Part shown: positions 1 through 44,709 of the stretch, piece after piece | How the letters are laid out: the number at the start of each line of letters is the position of its first letter | Numbering within the stretch: the first letter of the stretch is position 1 | Origin: a virus | Strand: one strand, 5' to 3' | UHGV virus genome: UHGV-0231863 | Length of the DNA stretch: 44,709 nt | The notes under the pieces: generated by a model | What the model was told of the DNA's origin: nothing | Databases searched by the model: none | What the model saw: only the letters and a program-made list of their open reading frames with translations | Made by a program: the position numbers and the translations under genes

Positions 1-2
1 TA

Positions 3-116
3 CCCGTGCGCGGTGTTGTAGAGGCGGATGAGCTGGTTGCGACCCAACCGGACAACGAAGAAGCGCACAACAACGGCGGTGGCACTAAGCGTCGTCGCCG
101 TAAGTCTGAGGAATAG
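3..116 (+). CDS. partial CDS (3' end only), unknown product
   Basis: Frame open from the window edge to a stop near 114-116; basic C-terminal tail KRRRRKSEE; start lies outside the window. Confidence 0.3.
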   Translation, partial: PVRGVVEADELVATQPDNEEAHNNGGGTKRRRRKSEE

Positions 117-171
117 TAATATCTGGCGTAGTCGGTATAATGAATCCATCCTCCATTGAAAAGGGTGAATC

Positions 172-921
172 ATGAACTACGCCAAAATCTATGAACAGTT
201 AATATCGAACGCAAAAATCAATCCGTTTAGTGGATATACCGAAAAACATCACATAGTCCCGAAATGCATGGGTGGTGGAGATACTTTTGACAATATTGTA
301 TCTTTGAGCGCTAGACAGCATTTTATTGCGCATTGGCTTCTCTATAAGATACACGGGACTAAAGAACTAGCTTTCGCCTGGAGGGTTATGTGTATTAACC
401 CTAAAAACAATCAAAGGTCAAAAGTTACCTCACATTCCTTTAAGTTGGCGAAAGAGGCTTGGGCTATAGAGATGTCCATGTTGAATACTGGTGTTAAATT
501 TTCTGATAAACGTATAGAAAATCTCAGACAAGCACATCTAGGGCAAAAGGCGTGGAATAAAGGAATTGCTACCGGGGAAACTGCAAGTAGAAAAGCCAGA
601 ATAGAGCATTACATGGCAAACCCACAACGATGTGTAACATGCGACCAGCCGATCCCCTACCGTTTTAAATCACGAGCGCGTAAATATTGCTGCAAGAAAT
701 GCCAGTTCGCGGACCCAAATAGAATCGTTGGCAAGGTTAATAGAAAACCTAACTCCGGAAGTTTTAAGAAGGGCCATACGTTAAAGGGCGAGACTGTCAA
801 GAAAATTTCAGATAAACTTACTGGAATGAAACGCCCGCGCGGGGTATGCCCACATTGCGGAACCGAAGGGGCGCTATCTCTTCTAAAGAGGTGGCACTTT
901 GATAACTGTAAGAAGGGGTGA
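172..921 (+). CDS. HNH homing endonuclease with NUMOD-like DNA-binding repeats
   Basis: ATG at 172; HNH core EKHHIVPK...N...ARQHFIAH; C-terminal repeated SDKxxxxLxxxK modules and Cys pairs; visibly AT-rich compared with flanking structural genes. Confidence 0.85.
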   Translation: MNYAKIYEQLISNAKINPFSGYTEKHHIVPKCMGGGDTFDNIVSLSARQHFIAHWLLYKIHGTKELAFAWRVMCINPKNNQRSKVTSHSFKLAKEAWAIEMSMLNTGVKFSDKRIENLRQAHLGQKAWNKGIATGETASRKARIEHYMANPQRCVTCDQPIPYRFKSRARKYCCKKCQFADPNRIVGKVNRKPNSGSFKKGHTLKGETVKKISDKLTGMKRPRGVCPHCGTEGALSLLKRWHFDNCKKG

Positions 922-924
922 AAA

Positions 925-1437
925 GTGTCCTTAACCGTAGAAACAGGTCAAATTATAGAAGGGGCCGATTCGTACATCTCACTGGCTGACGCCCGCGCGT
1001 TAGCGGCTAATTACGGTCTTGAGTTACCTGCCGACGACACTGACGCCGAAGTAGCTCTGCGCAATGGTGCTACTTATGTTGGGCTTGCAGAACCTCAGAT
1101 GTGCGGGCGTCGCGTATCCGCTGAACAGTCTCTGGCGTATCCTCGCACTGGCGTTACGTTAAACGGGTTCCCCGTAGCTAACAACGTCATCCCGAAGCAG
1201 GTAATTCTTGCGCAGGTAATTGCTGCTGTTACCTATGGCGCGGGTACTGAGGTGCGGGCTAACTCAGACGGGCGTTCCGTGCAGACTGAGCGTGTTGAGG
1301 GTGCGGTGACAGTGACCTACTTCAACAACGGCAACAGCGGGGCTACAACTGCTATTACCGCTGCGGACGACGCTTTACGCCCGTTACTGTGTGGCGGTCT
1401 TAACAACGGCTTCTCATTTAATGTGTACCGGGGTTAA
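925..1437 (+). CDS. putative head-tail adaptor/connector protein
   Basis: Follows head genes; N-terminal ADSYISLADA motif reminiscent of gp6-like adaptors; translationally coupled to neighbours. Confidence 0.4.
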   Translation: MSLTVETGQIIEGADSYISLADARALAANYGLELPADDTDAEVALRNGATYVGLAEPQMCGRRVSAEQSLAYPRTGVTLNGFPVANNVIPKQVILAQVIAAVTYGAGTEVRANSDGRSVQTERVEGAVTVTYFNNGNSGATTAITAADDALRPLLCGGLNNGFSFNVYRG

Positions 1438-1439
1438 AA

Positions 1440-2054
1440 ATGGCGAAGACTAAAACAGAGATATTTACGCTAATCGGGTCCGAGCTACCTGACAGCACGA
1501 CCGGGAAAATTACACCAGCTAAATTGCGTGGCGTACTTACGCAGATGGCCGACTCGCCTATTTACACCACTCCTGGGGTGAAAGAGGTCGAAGTTCTCCG
1601 CGCTGCGTCGACCATAGCGCAAGCGCCGACCGCGGTAGATACAGCATTGCAATTAACTTTCGGCTCCGCTAAGGGAAGTGCATCTGACCCGGTAATGATT
1701 AATGCCGCAGGGCTTGTTACATTCAACACTGCGGGCAACTACACCGTTCGCATCAAGTTACAGGCGGGGCGTACTGGCGCTAGTGGGACATCAATCCTGC
1801 TATCACGTATTTTAGTAAACGGTGCTCAGTACGGCTCTCCCGCAGCAACTAAGCTGGTAAGCGCGGACGTGACCATCCCGATTGAATCCCGCGTCGTTAT
1901 TAACCCCGCAGCAGGCCAGACGTTTGCCGTTCAGATTATGCGGGATGGTGCCGGAAGCAACTTCGGCGGCGTGTACCCACAAGCCGCTACCGTAACAGCA
2001 TGGGGCACAGCACCGTCCGCGCTACTGGTTATTTCGAGACTGGAGGCCGCTTGA
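1440..2054 (+). CDS. hypothetical virion structural protein
   Basis: 204-aa ORF in the head-to-tail junction block, coupled to neighbours; no recognisable motif. Confidence 0.4.
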   Translation: MAKTKTEIFTLIGSELPDSTTGKITPAKLRGVLTQMADSPIYTTPGVKEVEVLRAASTIAQAPTAVDTALQLTFGSAKGSASDPVMINAAGLVTFNTAGNYTVRIKLQAGRTGASGTSILLSRILVNGAQYGSPAATKLVSADVTIPIESRVVINPAAGQTFAVQIMRDGAGSNFGGVYPQAATVTAWGTAPSALLVISRLEAA

Positions 2055-2148
2055 TGAATAAGTTCACATGTGGTGTAGTTTTTGGTTTTCTTACCGCGGT
2101 AGTCTTGCATAGTTACGGTGTTCTTTTGACGCTGCAAGAGGTGCTAAA

Positions 2149-2508
2149 ATGAGCACCGCTTTCAGTAAACGTATGCAAGGCGTGGGTACGCGCCTGCTAA
2201 CCAAATTCGGTAGCACGGTATCTCTGATTCGCGCTGGTTCAAAAGTATGGGATGAAGTTCTCGGTGAGTACGTCTGGTCTGCGGATGAAGTGTTGCCGTT
2301 GAAGGCCGTTCCGGTTCCGGTAAACGCGGGACTGGTAAACGGTACGACGATTCAGGCTGGCGACATGATTGTTAAAGCCGATTACAGCGTCGTTCCGAAG
2401 ATGGAAGACAAGGTGCAATTCGGCGGCGAGCAATGGTCCATCGTAGCTATTGAGAAGAAGATGGTTAACGATGACGTCGTGGCGTACTTTATTCAGGTGA
2501 GAAAATGA
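2149..2508 (+). CDS. putative head closure / neck protein
   Basis: 119-aa ORF with 4-nt overlap onto next gene; position in neck module. Confidence 0.35.
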   Translation: MSTAFSKRMQGVGTRLLTKFGSTVSLIRAGSKVWDEVLGEYVWSADEVLPLKAVPVPVNAGLVNGTTIQAGDMIVKADYSVVPKMEDKVQFGGEQWSIVAIEKKMVNDDVVAYFIQVRK

Positions 2509-2900
2509 GTTTCGCGCTCGATGTCTCTAAGTTCGTGGAAAAGGCGAAGAAGAACCCTGAGAAGGTGATGCGTCAGGTGTCTATCAAGCTGTTTTCCGCT
2601 ATTATAAAGGCGAGTCCGGTAGACACGGGCCGCTTTCGTATGAACTGGATGGCATCTGGCGGTACTCCTGCTTCCGGGATTACGGACGCTACGGATAAAT
2701 CAGGAAACACAGCAACCGGAAACGCTACGAGTTTCGTGCTGAAAGCCGCTGACTGGCATGAGTTCACGCTGACAAATAATCTGCCGTATGCGCAACGGCT
2801 GGAGTATGGTTGGTCGCAACAGGCGCCAGCCGGGGTTGTCAGGACTAATGTGTCTCGCTTCCAGCAACTCATTAACGAAGAAGCCAACAAGGTGAAATGA
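2505..2900 (+). CDS. HK97 gp10-like head-tail joining protein
   Basis: LPYAQRLEYGW motif typical of HK97 gp10 family; overlapping stop/start with neighbours. Confidence 0.5.
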   Translation: MSFALDVSKFVEKAKKNPEKVMRQVSIKLFSAIIKASPVDTGRFRMNWMASGGTPASGITDATDKSGNTATGNATSFVLKAADWHEFTLTNNLPYAQRLEYGWSQQAPAGVVRTNVSRFQQLINEEANKVK

Positions 2901-3313
2901 TGGGCTACTTTGAGGACTTAACAAAAGCGTTCGATGTTCCGCTGGTAGCCTTCGGAACCGCCAACGGCATCAAGGTCGCGCTTGAAAACATCGACGCGCC
3001 GACGTCAACCGATACGCCATATCTGGCAAGTTACATGTTACTGGCGGATACCGAGCAAGCAGATTTGTTCTTCACGGAACAACGCGCGGGTGTTTATCAG
3101 GTCGACATTAACTACGCATCGGTGAAAGGTAGCGCGCCAATCAATAAAATGGCAGACTTACTTAACACGGCATTCAAAGCAGGTAAGTCATTTTCTCGTA
3201 ACGACATCTGCGCCGAGGTTCAATCGGTTAGCCTGGGGCCGCTGATTGTAGAAAACGGATGGGCCAAACGACCATTGTCAATTAACTTTATTGCATTCAC
3301 CAAGAGGCTGTGA
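2897..3313 (+). CDS. putative tail terminator / tail completion protein
   Basis: 138-aa ORF immediately upstream of the major tail protein candidate. Confidence 0.35.
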   Translation: MMGYFEDLTKAFDVPLVAFGTANGIKVALENIDAPTSTDTPYLASYMLLADTEQADLFFTEQRAGVYQVDINYASVKGSAPINKMADLLNTAFKAGKSFSRNDICAEVQSVSLGPLIVENGWAKRPLSINFIAFTKRL

Positions 3314-4482
3314 ATATGGCTACAACTCCTTTTAAGGGCGCGAATACTGCGCAATTCTATGTGGCAGAAACTACCCCTGGCGTAACACCGACTAACCCGG
3401 TCTGGTCGCCATTGCGTAACACAGGTGGCGTTCCTGCCATTACCCGCGACACGCTGACCTCCAACGAACTGGACGGCAGCCGTGAAACTACGTCAATCCG
3501 CACCGGTAACAAGCAGGTTAGCGGAGAATACGCTATTGAGCTTAGCTCGAAAAGCCAGGACGACTGGCTGGCGGGTGCTTTAGGCTCTACATGGCAATCC
3601 GGTAGTTCTCTGACCGGGCTATCAATTACCGTCACGCCTGCAGGCAAGACCTTTACCCGTGCCGAAGGTAGCTTTATTTCTGACGGCGTTGAAGTGGGCG
3701 ACCTGATTGCGTTTACCGACTTAACCGGTGACAACGCAAAACCGTTTATCGTAACTGCAGTAGAGGCGCTGGTAGTGACCGGGGCGGGTATCCAGCATAC
3801 CCTGACCACAGAGACAGTAACTACCGCCGCTAAGACAGGGGATAAACTGGAAACGGGAAGCCGGTGCAAGACGTTCTCTATTCTCACCTGGTACAAAGGC
3901 CAGTGCGGCGGGACTGACGCGTACACACTAACCAAAGGCGTGGAAGTTTCTGGTTTTACCATCGAACAGGCTGTTAACGCTATGGTAACTGGCAGCTTCC
4001 CGTTCATCGGTCGCAGTCAGGAGATTCTCACCACGCGGCCGTCTGGTTCTGATTTCTCCTCTGTTACGTTTGGTGACGAGCCATTCTCCTCGGTCGATGT
4101 TTCTGTGTTCGACGGTTCTACGCCGTTGCGTTGCGACAGCCTGACCATCACCAACGACAACAGCGCGTCCGCACAGTTCGAACTCGGCAACACTAACGTA
4201 GCGTTTGTGGAGCGTAGCCGAGCAGCTAACACCTTCTCCATCTCCGGTAAGCTGTACGACATGGCGATGATTCAGAAGTTTATCAACGAGCAGCAGGTGG
4301 AGATTAACTCTATTCTGGCTGGGGTAAACGGGGCTATGTCTTTCAGTTTGAAACGTGCAGAACTTACGGCGGTTACACCTGAGATTGGAGGACCTGAGTC
4401 AATCACTCAGTCTATTGAAGGTCAGGCTACTGGCAACCAGTACCAGTCGTCTATTGTTATTCAGCGTATCACATACGCATAA
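3310..4482 (+). CDS. major tail protein (putative)
   Basis: 390-aa Thr/Ser/Gly-rich beta-type protein, last gene of neck block, followed by a strong terminator. Confidence 0.5.
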   Translation: MNMATTPFKGANTAQFYVAETTPGVTPTNPVWSPLRNTGGVPAITRDTLTSNELDGSRETTSIRTGNKQVSGEYAIELSSKSQDDWLAGALGSTWQSGSSLTGLSITVTPAGKTFTRAEGSFISDGVEVGDLIAFTDLTGDNAKPFIVTAVEALVVTGAGIQHTLTTETVTTAAKTGDKLETGSRCKTFSILTWYKGQCGGTDAYTLTKGVEVSGFTIEQAVNAMVTGSFPFIGRSQEILTTRPSGSDFSSVTFGDEPFSSVDVSVFDGSTPLRCDSLTITNDNSASAQFELGNTNVAFVERSRAANTFSISGKLYDMAMIQKFINEQQVEINSILAGVNGAMSFSLKRAELTAVTPEIGGPESITQSIEGQATGNQYQSSIVIQRITYA

Positions 4483-25729: not shown

Positions 25730-27991
25730 CTATTCCAAATCCTCCTCTGTCACTGTCAGCATTTCATTCGGTTCGTATATTGTCTTAGGAATTTTGTTGT
25801 CGTTTATACCCCACGGCAACCTGTATTGCTTAGGGATGGGCCTGTTGTTGTTATCCAGCCCAGAGACGATAACCCCCGCCTCGTGCATCTCTTCCAGTTT
25901 CTTTCGAAGGTCGTTATTAGCGTTAATCGGTACGCCGTAACTATCTTCTTTCGCCGCTTTGACGATAGCTGACATAGAGAACCCTCGCTTGTCGTCGCCT
26001 TGCTCCTGCAATTTACCTAATGCGTAAATAACCGTAGCCTCTTTGGAATCCAGTTTCTCGAACTGGCCTACCTTTTCTTTAACGGCTTCCTTCTGTTCGT
26101 CAGTCATACCTTCTACTTTCTTCACAAAGACAGAGAAGGCGTTGAAGTTGACAAAGACATCAATATGCGGATTTCCCGCGTCAAAATCGCGCACATCATC
26201 ACTGCTATACCCTTCCGGAAGCCCCATGAAGTTGTGAGTTGGTTCTTTCTTTTCCGGCGGCTCCGCTATCTGAATCTTCTGTATTACGAATCCTCTGGCT
26301 TTCTGCCGTTCTCCATTTCGGTTCTTTATGTGATACAGGTTTATCTCTAAGTTATTGTCGTTGTCTGGTTTATGCAGGAACATCCCGTTATCGATGGAGT
26401 TGTGAAAATCACTTCCACCCTTCGGCATCATGCCGTTTTCAGACGGCACAGTTTCGTCGATGTTTTTAGTCGGGTGCACCATAGCGCCTACCGCAGCGTT
26501 AAGCGTCGACGCTATTTCGTTAAGCGCCTGCGCCGCTTCTTTCATCGACCTGTTGTCGTTCTCGTCGAAGCCAGGTATGCAAGTTTGTAGGGTATCAAAC
26601 GTAACCTTTACAATTTTCTCTTCACCGGCGACACGGCGCATCATTCTCACCGCCTGGCGGCGCCATGCTTCATCAAGTAAATTACACCCATCCGCAACAC
26701 AATCGATAATGTGCAAGCGGTCCAGGCTATCGCCGAGGGCAATCTGTAGAGATTTTTTATGTCGCTCGAACGACTGTGCGCCTTCACCGGCGAAGATAAA
26801 TGCGTGACCTTCTGCGACCTCAGCACCACCGAACGCATATCTTTTTTCGGCGGCGATAGCAGCGTCAATCGCCATACTAAATGTTGACTTACCAGTGTGG
26901 GACTTTGCGCAAATGTAGAACGATTCGTTGGTCTGCATAAGGCCGTCTACTACGGGGTAAGCAGGTTCTTTTTCTACTTCCGGCTCGTCTTCGAGGTCTT
27001 CAAGCGTACAAGTTACAGGCTCCTCGTTCTCTGTGCGGTGCAGTTCTTCAATCTCTTCGTCCGGTAAGTCAGGCAAAGCCGCACGAATGCTGTTAATACT
27101 GATAGGTTGCTTGTCTATGTTAAGCTCGTCGGGCAGGCCGCACATACGCAAGGCCAAATGTTGCCGACGGTTAAGCTCGGTACAAGCGCCGTTGTTTGTG
27201 TGCTGGCACACGAAGCGCACCTCTTTACCGTCAAGCATGATGCTGGTGGAGCCTTTGCCTGTATGCAGATGTTCGTTCGGACACGGTACTTCGTACCCAC
27301 GACCTGACGGCAGCGCATCAAGACCCAACTCCGCTTCGCAAAAATACGCTATGTCGGCATTCAGCCCACGCTCATCGGCGGCAAGTGTCTTAGCTTCACG
27401 TTTACGCAGACCCATCTCTTCGGCTTTCTTGATGTACCGCTCAGCACGGATAACACGCCCTTCTGTGACCGTTATCTTCGACTCTTTATGGGGAAGGTAG
27501 ATAAGACGGTTGCCGTCTTCCGTGCAGTGGTCGCGCAATGCTTCATCTATTTCTAACTCGGCACAAATAGCACGTTGCACCATCCACGCATCGTTAGAGT
27601 TAAACGGCGTGCGAGCCGGAACCAGAACGCGGAAGGCGTAATCCCCGTTTTTGCACGCGTGCCGGTGTGACGCCGTTGTATGCAGAATGTTGAAGAACGG
27701 CGCATTCTTAAATTTGCGTGTCAGGTTGCGGTACTGAGTACGGTTGAGATGGTCAAAGTCGAACTTAACCACACTGTCTTCCAGAATCGCGTTCTTACGG
27801 CGACCACCAACAGGTGCGATAGCTTTCTGTTTAATCTTGGCGGCGTCGTACTCTTCCTTAGTCCACGACGGGTCCACGGATAAACGCTTCGATGTATCAC
27901 AGACATACTCTACGAACTGCTCCAGCGGCATTTCACGCGCTACAGGGTTTTTATCGAATGTGTTACGCAGCGTTGCAAAAACAATATTCAT
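25730..27991 (-). CDS. primase-helicase / replication initiation protein
   Basis: 753 aa; central P-loop CAKSHTGKST (RecA/DnaB-like ATPase); N-terminal region with His/Cys clusters consistent with a primase domain. Confidence 0.65.
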   Translation of the reverse strand: MNIVFATLRNTFDKNPVAREMPLEQFVEYVCDTSKRLSVDPSWTKEEYDAAKIKQKAIAPVGGRRKNAILEDSVVKFDFDHLNRTQYRNLTRKFKNAPFFNILHTTASHRHACKNGDYAFRVLVPARTPFNSNDAWMVQRAICAELEIDEALRDHCTEDGNRLIYLPHKESKITVTEGRVIRAERYIKKAEEMGLRKREAKTLAADERGLNADIAYFCEAELGLDALPSGRGYEVPCPNEHLHTGKGSTSIMLDGKEVRFVCQHTNNGACTELNRRQHLALRMCGLPDELNIDKQPISINSIRAALPDLPDEEIEELHRTENEEPVTCTLEDLEDEPEVEKEPAYPVVDGLMQTNESFYICAKSHTGKSTFSMAIDAAIAAEKRYAFGGAEVAEGHAFIFAGEGAQSFERHKKSLQIALGDSLDRLHIIDCVADGCNLLDEAWRRQAVRMMRRVAGEEKIVKVTFDTLQTCIPGFDENDNRSMKEAAQALNEIASTLNAAVGAMVHPTKNIDETVPSENGMMPKGGSDFHNSIDNGMFLHKPDNDNNLEINLYHIKNRNGERQKARGFVIQKIQIAEPPEKKEPTHNFMGLPEGYSSDDVRDFDAGNPHIDVFVNFNAFSVFVKKVEGMTDEQKEAVKEKVGQFEKLDSKEATVIYALGKLQEQGDDKRGFSMSAIVKAAKEDSYGVPINANNDLRKKLEEMHEAGVIVSGLDNNNRPIPKQYRLPWGINDNKIPKTIYEPNEMLTVTEEDLE

Positions 27992-28116
27992 TTCTTTTTC
28001 TCCGCACGTTCTAAGGCTTCCTGCATACGGCGCATTGCGCGGTTCATCTTTACCGGTGCGAAGAAATCAGCGCCGTGTTTCTGGCGGCGTAGCTGTGGAA
28101 CTATTAACTTCGTCAT
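27988..28116 (-). CDS. small basic protein (approximate coordinates)
   Basis: ~42-codon ORF with AGGA SD whose stop overlaps the primase start. Confidence 0.3.
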   Translation of the reverse strand: MTKLIVPQLRRQKHGADFFAPVKMNRAMRRMQEALERAEKKK

Positions 28117-28166
28117 TGTATAATCCTTGTGCTTACTTTGATGATTTATGCTTCGGCCCCGACGTT

Positions 28167-28400
28167 CTAGCGTTGGGGTTTCTTTTGTCTACGCACCGCA
28201 TTAACCCACTCTCCTTCGCTACGGTAAAAACTGCAATCAAGGATATCCTCTATAGAAAATTTAACTATTTTAGTGGGTCCACAAAAGTTATAAGGGAAAA
28301 GTTCTACATAACACCCATCGTCGGTTATATTTGACGCAATCTTGAAATAATATTTAATGCTGCCGTCTTCGCGGAAGCTACAACCCATACGCCCAATCAT
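28167..28400 (-). CDS. hypothetical protein
   Basis: 77-aa ORF between AlpA-like gene and primase. Confidence 0.4.
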   Translation of the reverse strand: MIGRMGCSFREDGSIKYYFKIASNITDDGCYVELFPYNFCGPTKIVKFSIEDILDCSFYRSEGEWVNAVRRQKKPQR

Positions 28401-28579
28401 TTCACGTTCTCCTTAATCCACTCTTCAACTTTATTACGGTCGAATGTTCCCGGTAAACGGCGACCCATAACCTTAATACAGCAATCCGGGAATTTACCAC
28501 TGCGCAACCAGTTATTAATTGTCTGACGCGTCACCCCGATACGCTCGGCTACTTCATTCTGTGTCATGTAATGTTGCAT
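28397..28579 (-). CDS. AlpA/Xis-like winged-helix DNA-binding protein
   Basis: MTQNEVAERIGVTRQTINNWLRSGKFP; AGGAG SD before internal ATG at 28579; first gene of the leftward operon. Confidence 0.6.
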   Translation of the reverse strand: MQHYMTQNEVAERIGVTRQTINNWLRSGKFPDCCIKVMGRRLPGTFDRNKVEEWIKENVK

Positions 28580-28610
28580 TTTTAAATCTCCTGTTTGTTT
28601 GGTGAAGCCA

Positions 28611-28639
28611 AGTATAGGATAGCGGGAATGTAAAAGCAA
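28611..28639 (-). promoter_or_regulatory. promoter TTGCTT-17-TATACT for leftward operon (AlpA-like gene first)
   Basis: Read on minus strand; ~30 nt upstream of the AGGAG SD. Confidence 0.45.
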
Positions 28640-28686
28640 CCAAAACACCACACAAAGTTACTAAGATACAAAAGATGCTACCGGTA

Positions 28687-28715
28687 TTGACTTTTACTTA
28701 AAAATATGGTAAGCT
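28687..28715 (+). promoter_or_regulatory. promoter TTGACT-17-TAAGCT (copy 1 of duplicated cassette) with palindrome AAGCTCAGcCTGAGCTT
   Basis: Plus strand; palindrome 28711-28727 overlaps -10; followed by identical 38-mer shared with 41272-41309. Confidence 0.45.
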
Positions 28716-28718
28716 CAG

Positions 28719-28756
28719 CCTGAGCTTGTGAAGTATGAACAAGCGACCGCGGCGCG
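28719..28756 (+). repeat. 38-nt block identical to 41272-41309 (copy 1)
   Basis: CCTGAGCTTGTGAAGTATGAACAAGCGACCGCGGCGCG; contains hairpin GCTTGT-gaagtatga-ACAAGC and ATG of micro-ORF MNKRPRR. Confidence 0.85.
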
Positions 28757-28901
28757 CGGCGGGCGAAACGAGCACGTGTAGCGTGTGGAGTGAGGCTCGC
28801 TGGCGCGTTTGGGAGGCCCAAAGTCTATTGTAATTCCCGCCTAAATATCTAAGTTACTGATTTGCCGTTGGTTATATCCGCAAGCTCACTCACTCACTCT
28901 T

Positions 28902-28938
28902 GGTGCCTTCGGCACCACGTTCGTTTCGTTTCGCTTGC
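28902..28938 (+). terminator. UUCG-tetraloop hairpin plus U-rich tract
   Basis: GGTGCC-ttcg-GGCACC followed by ACGTTCGTTTCGTTTCGCTT; preceded by (CTCA)x3. Confidence 0.45.
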
Positions 28939-28983
28939 TACCCCATTAAACGAAAGAATCACAACGGCAACGTAACTATTCTC

Positions 28984-29012
28984 TTGCACACACCAACATA
29001 ATAGGATACTAT
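28984..29012 (+). promoter_or_regulatory. promoter TTGCAC-17-TACTAT with operator AATAGgataCTATT (29000-29013)
   Basis: CTTGCACACaccaacataataggaTACTATTCAC then conserved AAACGAGA leader and GGAG SD. Confidence 0.55.
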
Positions 29013-29046
29013 TCACTTATCGAAACGAGACAGAGGAGTGAGGGCT

Positions 29047-29244
29047 ATGTTTAAACGTGGTCAGTTGGTTAAATACTCCGACGATAAACACGGCATAATT
29101 GAATTAAAATCTGCTTTATTTCCAGGAAAGTACGTAGTTACCGTGCAAAATGTGAGAGGAGTAAATTCACAAATATACGTAGCGGAGGAGAACTTAAAAC
29201 TCATCGGCAACAATTTTAAATTTAAAGGGGGGAGGGTGAAGTGA
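29047..29244 (+). CDS. hypothetical early protein
   Basis: ATG with GGAG SD downstream of conserved promoter cassette; stop overlaps next start. Confidence 0.45.
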   Translation: MFKRGQLVKYSDDKHGIIELKSALFPGKYVVTVQNVRGVNSQIYVAEENLKLIGNNFKFKGGRVK

Positions 29245-29444
29245 TGGAAGAATTATTTGAAGAACTGAAACATCATGATTTCGAGGAAATATATTTCGTA
29301 GCTGAACGCTACGAGGTGCATCTGGCGGACGGTATAACGGTTATTACATCTACCAGCGAGCGAATGTTAAATAGCTTACGAGCAATACGAACGGCATCGA
29401 ATCATGATGCTTGTGCCGACGACGCTGAGGGAGGTTGCCGTTAA
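29244..29444 (+). CDS. hypothetical early protein
   Basis: Acidic 66-aa ORF, TGATG / TAATG coupling to neighbours. Confidence 0.45.
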   Translation: MEELFEELKHHDFEEIYFVAERYEVHLADGITVITSTSERMLNSLRAIRTASNHDACADDAEGGCR

Positions 29445-29623
29445 TGCGAATCCGTATAACTGACCGCAGGCTTATCCGTATAACTGACCGCAGGCTTATA
29501 GATTTCGGTATCTCGGTAGGTGATGTTTTTCCGGCGTTCAGAATCAACCATTATGGTTTTATGATTGAGTACAAAGGGTCGTTATTGTTCGTGTATCGGG
29601 ATGAATGTGAGGTTCTGGTATGA
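29444..29623 (+). CDS. hypothetical early protein containing tandem IRITDRRL repeat
   Basis: 59-aa ORF; includes the perfect 24-bp tandem duplication. Confidence 0.4.
   Translation: MRIRITDRRLIRITDRRLIDFGISVGDVFPAFRINHYGFMIEYKGSLLFVYRDECEVLV
29450..29497 (+). repeat. perfect 24-bp tandem duplication (2 copies)
   Basis: ATCCGTATAACTGACCGCAGGCTT repeated head-to-tail; encodes IRITDRRL twice in frame. Confidence 0.9.
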
Positions 29624-29775
29624 GAGAAGCATTTGAACGGTGGGCTGTGGTCGAGGGTCTGCCGGTTAACAAGGGTTCAAAGAAAGAGTACCTGAACGTT
29701 AAGACGCGTCTCGCGTGGCGGGCGTGGAAAGCTGGTGTGCAATCCTTGATTGAAAGAGGTGTGAGGTATGGGTGA
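29620..29775 (+). CDS. hypothetical early protein
   Basis: 51-codon ORF read by eye, ATGA-type overlaps at both ends. Confidence 0.35.
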   Translation: MREAFERWAVVEGLPVNKGSKKEYLNVKTRLAWRAWKAGVQSLIERGVRYG

Positions 29776-34651: not shown

Positions 34652-35197
34652 ATGAAGCTGAAACTCAAGCAGCCATCGCCAGAGGTGGTGCAAGCTGCAC
34701 ATGAAGAAGCTGTTAGCGCAAACCGCCGACGTAAACGACCGCGTGGGAAACAGAGCCTTTATCAATCGTCCAGTAATTCCGCCACGTTGTGGGACCCGGA
34801 CTATTGCGACGCGTTAATCGAGTTCTTCGACCGTACGTCGTGGGAACTTGTGCCTACGTCCAAGGGTGACGAACGTCCGCTGATTCAGGATAAACCGCCG
34901 TCACTGGCCCGCTTCGCCTTACACATCGGCGTAACTATCCCGATTATTAAGCTGTGGCTGCGTGAGATTCCCGCATTTGCAGAAGCCTATGAAACAGCAC
35001 AGGCGCTGGAAGAGGCATATTTCACTGAGACAGGGGCCGCGGGTATCTCTGCTACGTTCGCCGCAGCTAAACTGGGCCTCGGTAAAGAGAAACCAGTCGA
35101 ATCCACCGAAGAAACGGCACCGACTGAGATTATTTTTAGTGTTGCAGAGCCTGTAGGTAAAATTGTAACAACGAATATGGGTGAGGTAGAGGAATGA
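34652..35197 (+). CDS. terminase small subunit (putative)
   Basis: ATG with AAGGGG SD; basic N-terminus; immediately upstream of and overlapping the large terminase. Confidence 0.55.
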   Translation: MKLKLKQPSPEVVQAAHEEAVSANRRRKRPRGKQSLYQSSSNSATLWDPDYCDALIEFFDRTSWELVPTSKGDERPLIQDKPPSLARFALHIGVTIPIIKLWLREIPAFAEAYETAQALEEAYFTETGAAGISATFAAAKLGLGKEKPVESTEETAPTEIIFSVAEPVGKIVTTNMGEVEE

Positions 35198-36444
35198 GTA
35201 TTCAGCTATCCGCACCGCAGGCACTGTTCCTGAATTGCGATAACAAATACAAAGCCTATGTCGGCGGCTTCGGCAGCGGAAAGACATTTGTTGGCTGCCT
35301 TGACCTGCTTACGTTTATGCTCAAGCATCCAGGTACGCGCCTGGGTTACTTCGGCCCGACATACCCGGCTATCCGTGACATCTTCTACCCGACATTTGAG
35401 GAAGCCGCTAACCTGCTCGGCCTCGATGTGCTGGTTAAATCTGGCGACAAAGAAGTCGTGGTTACTCGCGGTAAGACGGTGCTCGGTACAGTTATCTGCC
35501 GTTCTATGGATAACCCAGGCTCGATAGTCGGCTTCAAAATCGCTGCTGCGGTCGTGGATGAGCTTGATGTATTGAGCCGTGAGAAAGCTGAGTTGGCGTG
35601 GAACAAAATAGTCGCCCGTATGCGTCTGGTTATCCCCGGCGTAACTAACCACATCTCTGTCACCACGACACCGGAAGGGTTCAAGTTCGTCTACGCCAAG
35701 TTCAAAGAGAACCCGACGCCGAGTTACTCGATGGTGCAGGCTTCTACACACGAGAACGCGCGATTCCTGCCGCCTGACTACATTAGCTCACTGACCGAGA
35801 CTTACCCCGCGCAACTGATTAACGCGTACCTGAACGGTGAGTTCGTTAACCTGACATCCGGCAGCGTGTATTATGCGTATGACCGTCGCAAGCACCGCAG
35901 CAAAGAGACAATTCAACCGGGCGATACACTGTACATCGGGCAGGACTTCAACGTTACGAAGAACGCCAGCGCCGTGTATGTGCAACGTAAAGACGGCTGG
36001 CACGCGGTGGCAGAACTGAAAGGTCTGTTTGATACGCCGGACACCGTGCGTGTAATTACTGAGAAGTGGAAGTCGCAGGGCCACCGCATAGTCGTTTACC
36101 CGGACGCCAGCGGCAAGAACCGCAAGACCAACTCGGCGTCCATCTCTGACATCGCCCTACTCCAGCAGGCCGGTTTCGATGTACGGGCTAAATCCGCCAA
36201 CCCACCAGTTAAAGACCGTGTTTTAGCCGTGAATACCGCGCTGGAAAAAGGTAAGCTGTGGGTTAACGACCACTTATGCCCGGAGATAGCCAAGACGCTG
36301 GAGCAACAGGCGTACGACGACAACGGAGAGCCAGCTAAAGACGGCATCATTGACCATATGGCGGATGCGCTTGGCTATCCTGTAGTTTACGAGATGCCGG
36401 TGGTTAAACCAGTAATCAACATCCCGGTGACTTTCGCACTTTAA
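35194..36444 (+). CDS. terminase large subunit
   Basis: Walker A YVGGFGSGKTFVG near N-terminus; C-terminal nuclease-type acidic residues; size 416 aa. Confidence 0.9.
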   Translation: MSIQLSAPQALFLNCDNKYKAYVGGFGSGKTFVGCLDLLTFMLKHPGTRLGYFGPTYPAIRDIFYPTFEEAANLLGLDVLVKSGDKEVVVTRGKTVLGTVICRSMDNPGSIVGFKIAAAVVDELDVLSREKAELAWNKIVARMRLVIPGVTNHISVTTTPEGFKFVYAKFKENPTPSYSMVQASTHENARFLPPDYISSLTETYPAQLINAYLNGEFVNLTSGSVYYAYDRRKHRSKETIQPGDTLYIGQDFNVTKNASAVYVQRKDGWHAVAELKGLFDTPDTVRVITEKWKSQGHRIVVYPDASGKNRKTNSASISDIALLQQAGFDVRAKSANPPVKDRVLAVNTALEKGKLWVNDHLCPEIAKTLEQQAYDDNGEPAKDGIIDHMADALGYPVVYEMPVVKPVINIPVTFAL

Positions 36445-44267: not shown

Positions 44268-44609
44268 ATGGTTGATGTAATCAAACGTCGTGTTACCGGT
44301 GTGTCCGCCGATACCGTAGGTGCTAAAATCTATATGGCAAATATCGCACCTGCGTCTTTTTCTACTGCGCTTGACGCTACCACTACCAAGTCTACTGGGC
44401 GGACGATGGCTCTGACCGTAGTTGTAGCTGGTGGACTCGAGCCGTACTCTTACCAGTGGTACAAAGATAACAACGCTATCCCAGGCGCTACCGCCGCCAC
44501 CTACGAGAAAACTTCGCTCGCTACTACCGATTCCGGTACGTATAAAGTGGTTGTCCACGATGTATACGGTAATATTATCTCCAGCAGCACCGTAGCAACT
44601 GTAGCTTAA
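44268..44609 (+). CDS. Ig-like domain protein (possible capsid decoration)
   Basis: YSYQWYKDNNAIPG...GTYKVVVHD Ig-like pattern, paralogous in style to 40689..41150. Confidence 0.5.
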   Translation: MVDVIKRRVTGVSADTVGAKIYMANIAPASFSTALDATTTKSTGRTMALTVVVAGGLEPYSYQWYKDNNAIPGATAATYEKTSLATTDSGTYKVVVHDVYGNIISSSTVATVA

Positions 44610-44645: not shown

Positions 44646-44709
44646 ATGGCAGATAATTATGTAATCCGCGAAAAGTACACCCACGTTGATATGGTTGATG
44701 GTCAGGTGA
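44646..44709 (+). CDS. partial CDS (5' end only), unknown
   Basis: ATG after AAGGAAAGG SD; runs off window edge. Confidence 0.3.
   Translation, partial: MADNYVIREKYTHVDMVDGQV

What the first reader, a model, noticed from the sequence alone, without database searches (positions are those of the whole stretch)
172..921. AT-rich free-standing HNH homing endonuclease inserted between head and neck genes
The HNH gene is markedly more AT-rich than its neighbours and sits between the head-decoration and adaptor genes, immediately followed (4-nt gap) by the next gene. This is typical of an invading homing endonuclease; such enzymes near packaging genes can also assist terminase.
Basis: partly seen in the sequence, partly recalled or inferred. 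Interest (0 to 1): 0.4.

Follow-up and report, generated by a model that had tools for sequence, protein, structure and literature searches.

The report
Mob-type homing endonuclease cassette before adaptor gene
The gene is an intact, selfish "homing endonuclease" of the phage T4 Mob type, carried by about 1% of related phages; it is an ordinary kind of element and was already annotated in the close relative phage K1G.

Summary
The ORF at 172-921 is real, intact and AT-rich: 42.5% GC against 50.8% for the genome. The window is a whole K1G-like Kagunavirus genome. Phage K1G carries the same gene (98.8% aa), already annotated "homing endonuclease; similar to T6 mobE".

Sequence, profile and fold comparisons place it among T-even Mob HNH endonucleases. 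About 385 related phage records and 34 IMG/VR contigs have an empty site (ORF11 stop, 3 nt, adaptor ATG). Only K1G, MirsaeidiM_Esher4 and one IMG/VR contig carry the gene.

New findings here:
- The inserted unit appears to be 117-981, because the first 57 nt of the adaptor gene travel with the endonuclease.
- Homologues down to 43% identity all lie directly upstream of an Ad1 adaptor gene.
- The cassette has a conserved -10-like element inside a hairpin that sequesters the ribosome-binding site, as described for T4 endonucleases.
- A third allele, a 50-aa zinc-finger ORF, occupies the same junction in other relatives.

Cleavage and homing were not tested. The suggestion that it helps terminase is not supported. 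This is an ordinary free-standing homing endonuclease, a new member of a known kind, of modest interest.

The parts
1..116 (+). 3' part of the small upstream ORF ('ORF11', 59 aa). It begins at 44646 at the other end of this circularly permuted window, and its stop codon TAG is at 114-116. This is the left edge of the insertion.
   Evidence: Translation; K1G annotation. Similarity to relatives without the endonuclease runs right up to the stop codon.
117..981 (+). Inferred mobile cassette (865 bp): 5' leader, endonuclease ORF, ribosome-binding site for the adaptor gene, and a replacement for the first 19 codons of the adaptor.
   Evidence: Relatives without the endonuclease have ORF11 stop, 3 nt, then the adaptor ATG, and regain DNA similarity only from 982. 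Segment 925-981 is 58% identical to Kagunaviruses lacking the gene but 72-79% identical to distant lineages that carry it; the flanking segments show the reverse pattern.
136..141 (+). TATAAT -10-like element of the cassette. K1G, Esher4, L038 and L125 have TGGTATAAT, an extended -10. In this window position 133 is C, which breaks the TG. The inferred transcription start is near 147-149.
   Evidence: TAnnAT is conserved at the same place in 8 endonuclease lineages, and 5 of the 8 have TGn in front of it. The generic sigma-70 scan found no -35/-10 pair. The promoter is an inference.
124..184 (+). RNA stem-loop that encloses the Shine-Dalgarno sequence (GGGTG, 163-167) and the start codon. Outer stem: 124-132 pairs with 176-184 (UGGCGUAGU / ACUACGCCA). 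Inner stem: 140-152 pairs with 162-173. Loop motif: CCATCCTCCAT at 146-156.
   Evidence: MFE -22.2 kcal/mol, z = -1.9. AUG unpaired probability is 0.18 in read-through RNA and 0.93 in RNA starting at 148. Equivalent hairpins with different stem sequences occur in 7 other lineages; the true 5'/3' arm pairing beats all but 4 of 40320 permutations.
172..921 (+). Mob-type HNH homing endonuclease gene (249 aa). It comprises an N-terminal HNH module, NUMOD3-like motifs, a zinc ribbon and a C-terminal CCHC zinc knuckle.
   Evidence: PHROG 655 'homing endonuclease' E=4e-55. 31.9% identity to T6 MobE over 99% of its length, E=1e-23. Foldseek hits to T4 MobB and MobC at E about 1e-9. dN/dS 0.07-0.09.
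247..333 (+). HNH catalytic core: H26 and H27 (247-252), N41 (292-294), H50 (319-321), H54 (331-333).
   Evidence: These residues are invariant in a 50-sequence alignment. The segment aligns to the McrA HNH motif. The AlphaFold model shows a beta-beta-alpha element (E23-27, E42-46, H47-61) with pLDDT about 95.
631..702 (+). Internal four-cysteine zinc ribbon: C154, C157, C173, C177.
   Evidence: Invariant in the 28-sequence clade alignment. Weak YacG-like zinc-ribbon matches.
847..909 (+). C-terminal CCHC zinc knuckle: C226, C229, H242, C246.
   Evidence: Invariant in both alignments.
913..918 (+). Shine-Dalgarno-like AAGGGG for the adaptor gene, lying inside the last codons of the endonuclease, 6 nt before GTG at 925.
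   Evidence: Read directly from the sequence. The same arrangement is seen in other lineages that carry the gene. No terminator-like site lies between the two genes.
925..981 (+). First 19 codons of the adaptor gene in the cassette-linked form (GTG start, '..ETGQIIEGADSYIS', 43.9% GC).
   Evidence: The same allele also occurs with a different small insert in 5 other Kagunavirus records.
925..1437 (+). Head-tail adaptor Ad1 gene (170 aa, Pfam DnaT_2). This is the gene the endonuclease clade is always found next to, and the presumed target gene.
   Evidence: Pfam PF20557 E=1e-50 and PHROG 477. Adjacency holds in all 15 distinct endonuclease lineages examined.

Best explanation
Window 172-921 encodes an intact free-standing homing endonuclease of the T-even 'Mob' type. 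It has an N-terminal HNH nuclease followed by NUMOD3-like and zinc-binding DNA-recognition modules.

The gene sits in an 865-bp cassette (117-981) between the stop codon of a small head-module ORF and the head-tail adaptor (Ad1) gene. The cassette carries four things:
- its own -10-like promoter element, embedded in a hairpin that buries the endonuclease's ribosome-binding site and start codon in transcripts reading through from upstream;
- the endonuclease ORF;
- a Shine-Dalgarno sequence for the adaptor gene within the endonuclease's last codons;
- a substitute version of the first 19 adaptor codons.

The inferred mechanism follows T4 MobE. During co-infection with a relative that lacks the gene, the enzyme would nick or cut the empty allele in or near the 5' end of the adaptor gene. 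Recombinational repair from the carrier genome would then copy in the cassette and co-convert the start of the adaptor gene. The carrier's own variant adaptor 5' sequence would escape cutting.

Shown here: the ORF and its composition, family membership, sporadic distribution, exact empty-site sequence, linkage to the variant adaptor 5' end, constant adjacency to adaptor genes, purifying selection, and hairpin co-variation.

Inferred, not shown: cleavage, where the enzyme cuts, resistance of the linked allele, promoter activity and translational control.
For: Family membership:
- PHROG 655 E=4e-55 over the full length.
- tblastn to T6 and T-even MobE-type genes at about 32-34% identity over 99% of the protein, E 1e-19 to 1e-25.
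- Foldseek against viral models: 79 hits at E<=1e-3, including T4 MobB (2e-9), T4 MobC (4e-9) and a phage 'MobE' (6e-9).
- The HNH residues and the CCHC knuckle are invariant. The model shows a beta-beta-alpha fold.

Foreign composition: 42.5% against 50.8% GC.

Sporadic distribution:
- Only 3 of 371 matching records span the gene.
- 385 records hold an uninterrupted junction.
- 34 IMG/VR contigs are empty against 1 occupied.

Cassette and linked 5' segment:
- Adaptor nt 1-57 is 58% identical to relatives lacking the gene, while flanking segments are 82-92% identical.
- The same 57 nt is 72-79% identical to distant lineages that carry the gene, while flanking segments are 63-75% identical.
- In a 47%-identity relative (L218), a 34-nt direct repeat of the adaptor start flanks the endonuclease (0 of 500 shuffles score as well).

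Target association: homologues at 85, 72, 70, 67, 57, 55, 54, 51, 50, 48, 47, 46 and 43% identity all sit directly upstream of an Ad1-type adaptor gene, even where the adaptor is only 29% identical.

Maintenance: all 13 copies checked are intact, and dN/dS is 0.07-0.09.

The four Kagunavirus copies are 99.1-99.5% identical from about -100 to +1020, while sequence beyond that diverges by 5-15%.

Regulation.

Precedents: T4 MobE nicks nt 122-126 of the downstream gene nrdB in a polymorphic stretch beside a conserved block, with co-conversion (PMC2790892). Hairpins that sequester the ribosome-binding site, with an internal late promoter, are described for I-TevI, I-TevII, I-TevIII, SegB and Aeh1 MobE (PMC2988022).
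Against: - No cleavage, nicking or homing data exist for this enzyme.
- Pfam HNH scores 18.4 bits, below the curated cutoff of 21.4, and NUMOD3 is not detected in this protein itself.
- PDB fold matches are only local and weak, with E>=0.17.
- The variant adaptor 5' allele is not exclusive to carriers of the endonuclease. Five Kagunavirus records have it together with an unrelated 50-aa zinc-finger ORF at the same junction. It may therefore be a linked allele of an insertion hot spot rather than an immunity allele.
- These phages are mosaic, and other blocks are also near-identical between the same genomes. The near-identity of the cassette is therefore not decisive evidence of recent homing.
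- The closest non-Kagunavirus relative of the gene is only 85% identical with dS about 1, so no donor has been identified.
- In this window the TG of the extended -10 is mutated (position 133), no -35 was found, and the hairpin z-score in this sequence alone is modest at -1.9.
Confidence: 0.78

Rival explanations
1. The gene is a resident passenger that no longer homes. It is kept intact for some other reason, or is only slowly decaying, and it spreads solely by descent and by the ordinary mosaic recombination of these phages.
For: No activity data exist. The phages are highly mosaic, with other near-identical blocks. No close donor is known: the best outside relative is 85% identical with dS about 1. 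The extended -10 TG is mutated in this window.
Against: Purifying selection is strong, with dN/dS 0.07-0.09, and all catalytic and zinc ligands are invariant in 50 sequences. The gene keeps a precise association with one gene start across phages whose adaptors are only 29% identical, which general recombination does not explain. Frequency is about 1%, yet the copies sit in different backbones.
Confidence: 0.15
2. The HNH protein is a packaging accessory that works with terminase, like the HK97 gp74-type HNH proteins of cos phages.
For: Only that it is an HNH protein encoded within the morphogenesis gene block. This idea is sometimes repeated for Kagunavirus HNH genes (PMC9825357).
Against: It is absent from about 99% of close relatives, which package normally. 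It is not next to terminase: it lies 6.7 kb away in K1G and about 9.3 kb downstream of the terminase ORF at 35194..36444 in this window. K1G-type terminases cluster with headful packagers (PMC5582158). Its 249-aa multi-module Mob architecture, with DNA-recognition modules, differs from a small stand-alone HNH.
Confidence: 0.02
3. The main selected role is competition between phages. The enzyme damages co-infecting relatives that lack it and forces exclusion of their local markers, which benefits the carrier phage. This uses the same biochemistry as homing but gives a different reason for persistence.
For: The target is an essential virion gene with conserved islands around the variable 5' stretch. 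Marker exclusion by T4 Seg and Mob enzymes is established (PMC2988022).
Against: Frequency is only about 1% among sampled relatives, which argues against a strong advantage. A presumed resistant allele without the endonuclease also circulates.
Confidence: 0.2

Closest known systems
T-even phage MobE (T4/T6 mobE, between nrdA and nrdB)
   Same: Both are free-standing genes with an N-terminal HNH and downstream DNA-binding modules. Identity is about 32% over the full length, and the fold matches Mob proteins. Both sit directly upstream of the gene thought to be targeted. In T4, the nick site and the recombination point lie in the first ~190 nt of the downstream gene, in a polymorphic stretch next to a conserved block (PMC2790892). 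Here the linked variant segment is nt 1-57 of the downstream gene, and it is followed by a conserved island at nt 61-90.
   Different: The host is a 44.7-kb siphovirus (Kagunavirus), not a T4-like myovirus. The target is a virion adaptor gene, not ribonucleotide reductase. T4 mobE has no promoter of its own and overlaps nrdA (PMC2790892), whereas this cassette has its own -10-like element and a 55-nt leader. No experimental data exist for this enzyme.
Aeromonas phage Aeh1 MobE, T4 I-TevI/II/III and SegB regulatory arrangement (a hairpin sequestering the ribosome-binding site, with a late promoter inside the hairpin)
   Same: A stem-loop buries the Shine-Dalgarno sequence and AUG in read-through RNA. 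A promoter-like element lies inside the 5' arm, so that the gene's own transcripts would lack the inhibitory arm (PMC2988022).
   Different: The element here looks like a host sigma-70 extended -10 (TGnTAnnAT), not a T4 late promoter (TATAAATA). Neither the transcription start nor translational repression has been measured.
ORF12 of Escherichia phage K1G (YP_009168793.1) and the 'endonuclease' of phage MirsaeidiM_Esher4
   Same: It is the same gene at the same position, 98.8% and 99.2% aa identity. K1G's record annotates it 'homing endonuclease; similar to T6 mobE'.
   Different: There are a few substitutions only: T86 and M103 here against N and R in both records, plus E36G and P162H in K1G alone. 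Position 133 in the leader also differs.
I-HmuI / I-TevIII-type intron-encoded HNH endonucleases
   Same: They share an HNH nuclease joined to extended modular DNA-binding domains. Homing goes with co-conversion of flanking markers (PMC2790892).
   Different: This gene is not inside an intron. No significant sequence or fold match to I-HmuI was obtained.

Membership tests
HNH (beta-beta-alpha-metal) nuclease superfamily | Conserved His...Asn...His catalytic motif | tested here: met
   H26/H27, N41, H50 and H54 are invariant in 50 homologues. The segment aligns to the McrA HNH motif. The Pfam HNH score is only 18.4 bits against a cutoff of 21.4, so the profile match alone is sub-threshold.
HNH (beta-beta-alpha-metal) nuclease superfamily | Beta-beta-alpha fold around the motif | tested here: met
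   The AlphaFold model has strands 23-27 and 42-46 followed by helix 47-61, with pLDDT about 95. Local Foldseek matches to Cas8-HNH and McrA HNH domains have probability up to 0.98 but E>=0.17.
Mob-type free-standing homing endonucleases of T-even phages | Full-length homology: N-terminal HNH plus a C-terminal DNA-binding region | tested here: met
   PHROG 655 E=4e-55. T6 MobE 31.9% identity over 99% of the protein, E=1e-23. T4 MobB and MobC structural matches at E about 1e-9.
Mob-type free-standing homing endonucleases of T-even phages | NUMOD3 DNA-binding motifs | tested here: inconclusive
   Pfam PF07460 is not reported for the window protein even at E<=10. It is recorded, mostly weak or faint, for many homologues. 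Motif-like stretches lie at residues 107-131 and 195-218.
Homing endonuclease gene (as a mobile element) | Sporadic presence at one precise site among close relatives, with a definable empty site | tested here: met
Homing endonuclease gene (as a mobile element) | Flanking sequence co-inherited with the gene (a co-conversion signature) | tested here: met
   Adaptor nt 1-57 changes its phylogenetic affinity together with the endonuclease, and a shared near-identical tract runs from about -100 to +1020. Caveat: the same 5' allele also accompanies a different insert.
Homing endonuclease gene (as a mobile element) | Site-specific cleavage or nicking of the allele that lacks the gene, and super-Mendelian inheritance | not testable with these tools
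   This needs crosses and nick mapping.
Terminase-associated HNH packaging factors (HK97 gp74-like) | Encoded next to the terminase/cos region and conserved among relatives that package the same way | tested here: not met
   It lies 6.7 kb from terminase in K1G and about 9.3 kb downstream of it in this window. It is absent from about 99% of relatives. The lineage clusters with headful packagers (PMC5582158).
Hairpin-with-internal-promoter translational control of T4-type homing endonucleases | A stem-loop pairs the Shine-Dalgarno sequence and AUG, and the stems co-vary between homologues | tested here: met
   The true arm pairing beats all but 4 of 40320 permutations. RNAalifold on the MAFFT alignment found no fixed-column consensus because the stems shift register.
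Hairpin-with-internal-promoter translational control of T4-type homing endonucleases | A promoter whose transcripts start inside the hairpin, and timing-dependent translation | not testable with these tools
   Only a conserved TAnnAT / TGnTAnnAT element is seen. The generic promoter scan was negative.

The most novel reading that the evidence does not exclude
This may be one member of an undescribed Mob-like endonuclease lineage specialised on the start of the head-tail adaptor gene across several siphophage groups. In this reading the lineage travels as a self-contained 'gene-start replacement' module. The module would comprise a promoter-in-hairpin translational switch, the endonuclease, a new ribosome-binding site and a new, cut-resistant 5' end for the target gene.

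The three junction states seen in nature would then be stages of the homing-endonuclease life cycle caught in one phage population: an empty site, the endonuclease, and a small zinc-finger ORF carrying the same variant adaptor 5' end.
Probability: 0.35. Interest if true: 0.45.

Novelty: new member of a known kind. Interest (0 to 1): 0.3.

Why it matters
The practical consequences are small:
- The gene is an accessory selfish element, not part of the packaging or assembly machinery, so it can be ignored or deleted when engineering K1-specific therapeutic phages.
- It marks a recombination hot spot that rewrites the N-terminus of the adaptor protein.

For the biology of homing endonucleases it offers a tractable system outside the T4 group. 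Natural alleles that are empty, occupied or possibly resistant all exist in isolated E. coli phages. The target gene is clearly predicted. A regulatory hairpin and promoter arrangement appears to have been kept, or reinvented, outside the T-even phages.

Tried and rejected
1. A decayed remnant of the original adaptor start at 117-135. Local alignment to the empty-site sequence scores no better than 460 of 2000 shuffles, so this is rejected for the window. A real 34-nt duplicate does exist in the distant relative L218.
2. RNAalifold consensus of the leader across 8 lineages gave no pairs, because stem registers differ. I replaced it with a permutation test of duplex energies for true against swapped arm pairs.
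3. PDB sequence and fold searches gave only weak, local HNH or zinc-ribbon matches, and no I-HmuI match.
4. Pfam and NCBIfam: HNH is sub-threshold, NUMOD3 is not detected in this protein, and no NCBIfam family matched.
5. The generic sigma-70 promoter and terminator scan of 1-1500 found nothing.
6. The leader motif CCATCYTCYAY is not enriched elsewhere in the genome (6 matches against 3.0 expected). The combined -10/motif pattern is also not enriched. The motif is therefore specific to the cassette and is not a general phage promoter.
7. The JGI metagenome scan returned almost only distant (<=33%) homologues in unrelated contexts. The close clade came from Logan, ENA and NCBI assemblies.
8. 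Is the 50-aa ORF of the third allele a deleted endonuclease? No detectable protein similarity was found (z<=2). It matches PHROG 7696, of unknown function.
9. Literature searches found no paper that discusses this gene or any adaptor-associated homing endonuclease.

Full report
**What the window is.** The 44,709-bp window is a complete, circularly permuted genome of a K1G-like Kagunavirus (Guernseyvirinae). Bases 1-3000 are 98.5% identical to Escherichia phage K1G and 95% identical to phage MirsaeidiM_Esher4. Gene order matches K1G. The window is cut inside a small ORF, 'ORF11' (59 aa; 44646..44709 plus 1..116, stop at 114-116).

**The observation.**
- ORF 172..921 (+, 249 aa, ATG start) exists.
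- It has 42.5% GC (GC3 42.4%) against a genome mean of 50.8%. Only 0.5% of 750-bp windows are as AT-rich (z = -2.8). The only other comparably AT-rich stretch is at about 27.9-29.7 kb.
- The next gene (925..1437, GTG start) is the head-tail adaptor Ad1 (Pfam DnaT_2 E=1e-50; PHROG 477). It follows after 3 nt, not 4.
- The upstream neighbour is ORF11, not the Hoc-like decoration gene (44268..44609).

**What the protein is.**
- PHROG 655 'homing endonuclease' matches the whole protein at E=4e-55.
- tblastn finds more than 1000 phage records. The full-length matches are mostly Mob-type genes of T-even-like phages, including T6 mobE at 31.9% identity over 99% of the protein, E=1e-23.
- Pfam HNH is sub-threshold at 18.4 bits against a cutoff of 21.4. 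However, the segment 'EKHHIVPKCMGGGDTFDNIVSLSARQHFIAHW' aligns with the McrA HNH motif. E24, H26, H27, P30, G35, N41, H50 and H54 are invariant in a 50-sequence alignment, as are C226, C229, H242 and C246.
- Within the closer clade, a four-cysteine ribbon (C154, C157, C173, C177) is also invariant.
- An AlphaFold model (mean pLDDT 85, pTM 0.46, typical of an extended multi-module protein) shows the beta-beta-alpha element at residues 23-61.
- Foldseek against viral models gives 79 hits at E<=1e-3. These include T4 MobB (2e-9), T4 MobC (4e-9) and a 'MobE homing endonuclease' (6e-9). Against PDB only weak local HNH matches appear.
- All 13 copies from different lineages are intact. dN/dS is 0.09 (window against the 85% relative) and 0.07 (L121 against L133).

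The protein is a maintained, probably active, Mob-type HNH endonuclease.

**Distribution and the empty site.**
- Of 371 phage records matching 1-3000, only K1G (two records) and Esher4 span the gene.
- At DNA level nothing else in the phage collection contains it.
- A probe across an empty junction finds 385 records with an uninterrupted junction, in both Kagunavirus and Jerseyvirus.
- Among Kagunavirus-like IMG/VR contigs found through the adaptor gene, 34 are empty and one (L038 = L041) is occupied.
- The empty site reads ...GAGGAATAA TTT ATGCCGCTAATCGTGGAAAC... In the window it reads ...GAGGAATAG [117...924] GTGTCCTTAACCGTAGAAAC....

**The unit that moves is larger than the ORF.**
- DNA similarity to every relative lacking the gene resumes only at 982.
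- The first 57 nt of the adaptor gene are 58% identical to Kagunaviruses lacking the gene, although the segments on either side are 82-92% identical.
- Those 57 nt are 72-79% identical to distant metagenomic lineages that carry the gene, whose other segments are only 63-75% identical.
- The segment is AT-rich (43.9% GC) like the endonuclease. It differs from the empty allele at many synonymous positions, including two serine codons (TCG and TCA against AGT).
- In genomes lacking the gene, this variable stretch (nt 16-60, nucleotide diversity 0.16-0.22) is bracketed by two unusually conserved islands, nt -14..+15 and nt 61-90 (diversity 0.025 each).
- The endonuclease's last codons also supply a Shine-Dalgarno sequence (AAGGGG, 913-918) for the adaptor gene. 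No terminator-like site intervenes.

I therefore take 117-981 as the cassette.

**A lineage tied to adaptor genes.** Closer homologues than any in the isolate collection exist in assemblies, at 85, 72, 70, 67, 57, 55, 54, 51, 50, 48, 47, 46 and 43% identity. Every one whose context I could read lies directly upstream of, or overlapping, an Ad1-type adaptor gene beginning M(x)LIVE(T/D)G. This holds even where the upstream genes are unrelated and the adaptor is only 29% identical. Two cases are especially informative:
- In L218 a 34-nt copy of the adaptor start (one mismatch; 0 of 500 shuffles score as well) lies upstream of the endonuclease. This shows that the element inserted within the adaptor's 5' coding region and brought its own copy of the gene start.
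- L220 has a similar upstream remnant, 'MALIVEDGSIV'.

More distant homologues (<=33% identity) sit in other contexts.

**Spread among Kagunaviruses.** The four occupied Kagunavirus genomes are 99.1-99.5% identical over the insert. They have very few differences from about -100 to +1020, beyond which divergence rises to 5-15% per 100 nt at breakpoints near +1020 to +1060. This fits co-conversion tracts. However, these phages are mosaic and share other near-identical blocks, so I treat it as consistent rather than decisive.

**A regulatory module.**
- In the window, 124-132 (UGGCGUAGU) pairs perfectly with codons 2-4 of the endonuclease (176-184), and an inner stem pairs 140-152 with 162-173. 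Together these enclose the Shine-Dalgarno sequence (163-167) and the AUG (MFE -22.2 kcal/mol; z = -1.9).
- Seven other lineages have, at the same place, a TAnnAT element (TGnTAnnAT in five), then a conserved CCATCTTCTAC motif, then a Shine-Dalgarno-containing 3' arm complementary to the sequence overlapping the -10 element. The stem sequences differ between lineages.
- True 5'/3' arm pairs form much more stable duplexes than swapped pairs (mean -13.3 against -8.7 kcal/mol). Only 4 of 40,320 permutations do as well.
- RNA read through from upstream has AUG unpaired probability 0.18. RNA starting at 148, about 7 nt after the -10, has 0.93.
- The motif is not enriched elsewhere in the genome.

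This is the arrangement described for T4 I-TevI, I-TevII, I-TevIII, SegB and Aeh1 MobE (PMC2988022). Here it rests on sequence inference only. In this window a T-to-C change at 133 destroys the TG of the extended -10 that K1G, Esher4, L038 and L125 retain.

**A complication.** The cassette-linked adaptor 5' allele also occurs in five Kagunavirus records: CR01, LM02P1, vB_Eco_AMO_3701M, ST20 and M01. These carry, at the same junction, a ~150-bp insert encoding a 50-aa zinc-finger-like ORF instead of the endonuclease. That ORF has no detectable similarity to the endonuclease. It matches PHROG 7696 of unknown function. It occupies the same junction in some Jerseyviruses. One IMG/VR contig with an empty junction (L007) has a hybrid 5' allele. 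So the junction is a three-state hot spot, and the variant 5' allele is linked to occupied junctions, not to the endonuclease alone. It could be a cut-resistant allele left after loss or replacement of the endonuclease, or simply the allele in which both inserts reside.

**Mechanism proposed.** By analogy with T4 MobE, I propose the following. T4 MobE nicks nt 122-126 of the downstream nrdB gene of T2, in a polymorphic stretch beside a conserved block, and is inherited with co-conversion (PMC2790892). Here, the enzyme would recognise the conserved start region of the adaptor gene in relatives lacking the gene. It would nick or cut in or near the variable stretch. Repair from the carrier genome would then copy in 117-981. 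Cleavage, its position and the resistance of the linked allele are all untested.

**Rejected idea.** A role in helping terminase is unlikely. The gene is missing from about 99% of relatives, is not adjacent to terminase, and belongs to a lineage that clusters with headful packagers (PMC5582158).

**Novelty.** The gene and its interpretation are already in K1G's GenBank annotation. I found no paper discussing it. It is a new, uncharacterised member of a well-known kind. The cassette boundaries, the adaptor-gene specificity of the clade, the hairpin and promoter module, and the three-state junction are incremental observations of interest mainly to specialists in homing endonucleases.

Noticed in passing
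L224:573-725 (PQ474795.1 9572-9724); also MF153391.1, OZ035819.1, OR061068.1, OR061069.1; L227:901-1050 (Jerseyvirus vB_SalS-S10): This is a third allele of the same ORF11|adaptor junction: a ~150-bp insert encoding a 50-aa zinc-finger-like ORF (PHROG 7696, unknown function). Its stop overlaps the adaptor ATG (AAATGTTAA). In the Kagunaviruses it is linked to the same variant adaptor 5' end as the endonuclease.
   Followed up: partly
L218:2430-2500 and 3429-3470; L220:2440-2512: In two distant relatives of the endonuclease (47% and 46% identity), a remnant of the adaptor gene's 5' end lies upstream of the endonuclease. In L218 it is a 34-nt direct repeat with one mismatch. In L220 it is a short ORF, 'MALIVEDGSIV...'. 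Both indicate insertion inside the adaptor coding region.
   Followed up: partly
L007:2501-2570 (IMGVR_UViG_3300045988_017057): This contig has an empty junction and a hybrid adaptor 5' end. Codons 1-13 are of the empty-site type, and codons 14-20 (GATTCGTACATCTCACTA) are of the cassette-linked type. It is a natural recombinant that could help map the cut site.
   Followed up: no
L038:2805-2810 / L041 (IMGVR_UViG_3300007747_000049): The one IMG/VR contig that carries the endonuclease has an internal deletion of about 89 nt in its adaptor gene relative to the window (window ~1232-1320). This is either a defective phage or an assembly error.
   Followed up: no
window 133: This is a single-base polymorphism in the cassette leader. 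The window has C, Esher4 and L038 have T, and K1G has a 1-nt deletion. Only the window loses the TG of the TGGTATAAT extended -10-like element.
   Followed up: partly
window ~27876-29750: This is the only other stretch of the genome as AT-rich as the endonuclease (750-bp windows down to 42.0% GC). It lies in a region of short ORFs between the replication genes and the early region.
   Followed up: no
window 1440-2054 vs L001:4439-4885 (K1G ORF15): The gene after the adaptor is a 204-aa ORF here, in Esher4 and in SHAK7693. In K1G it is annotated as only 148 aa, followed by a gap, which suggests a frameshift or sequencing error in the K1G record.
   Followed up: no
L002 (OR594180.1, phage vB_EcoM_SHAK7693): The GenBank taxonomy line says Autographiviridae; Kayfunavirus, and the name says 'M' (myovirus). 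The sequence is collinear with Kagunavirus siphophages and about 89% identical to them.
   Followed up: no
OR992644.1 20328-21116 (Escherichia phage EP-B-K_E2, 43.5 kb): Another phage of similar genome size carries a different Mob-like endonuclease (32.7% identical) at an unrelated position. These genomes therefore host more than one such element.
   Followed up: no
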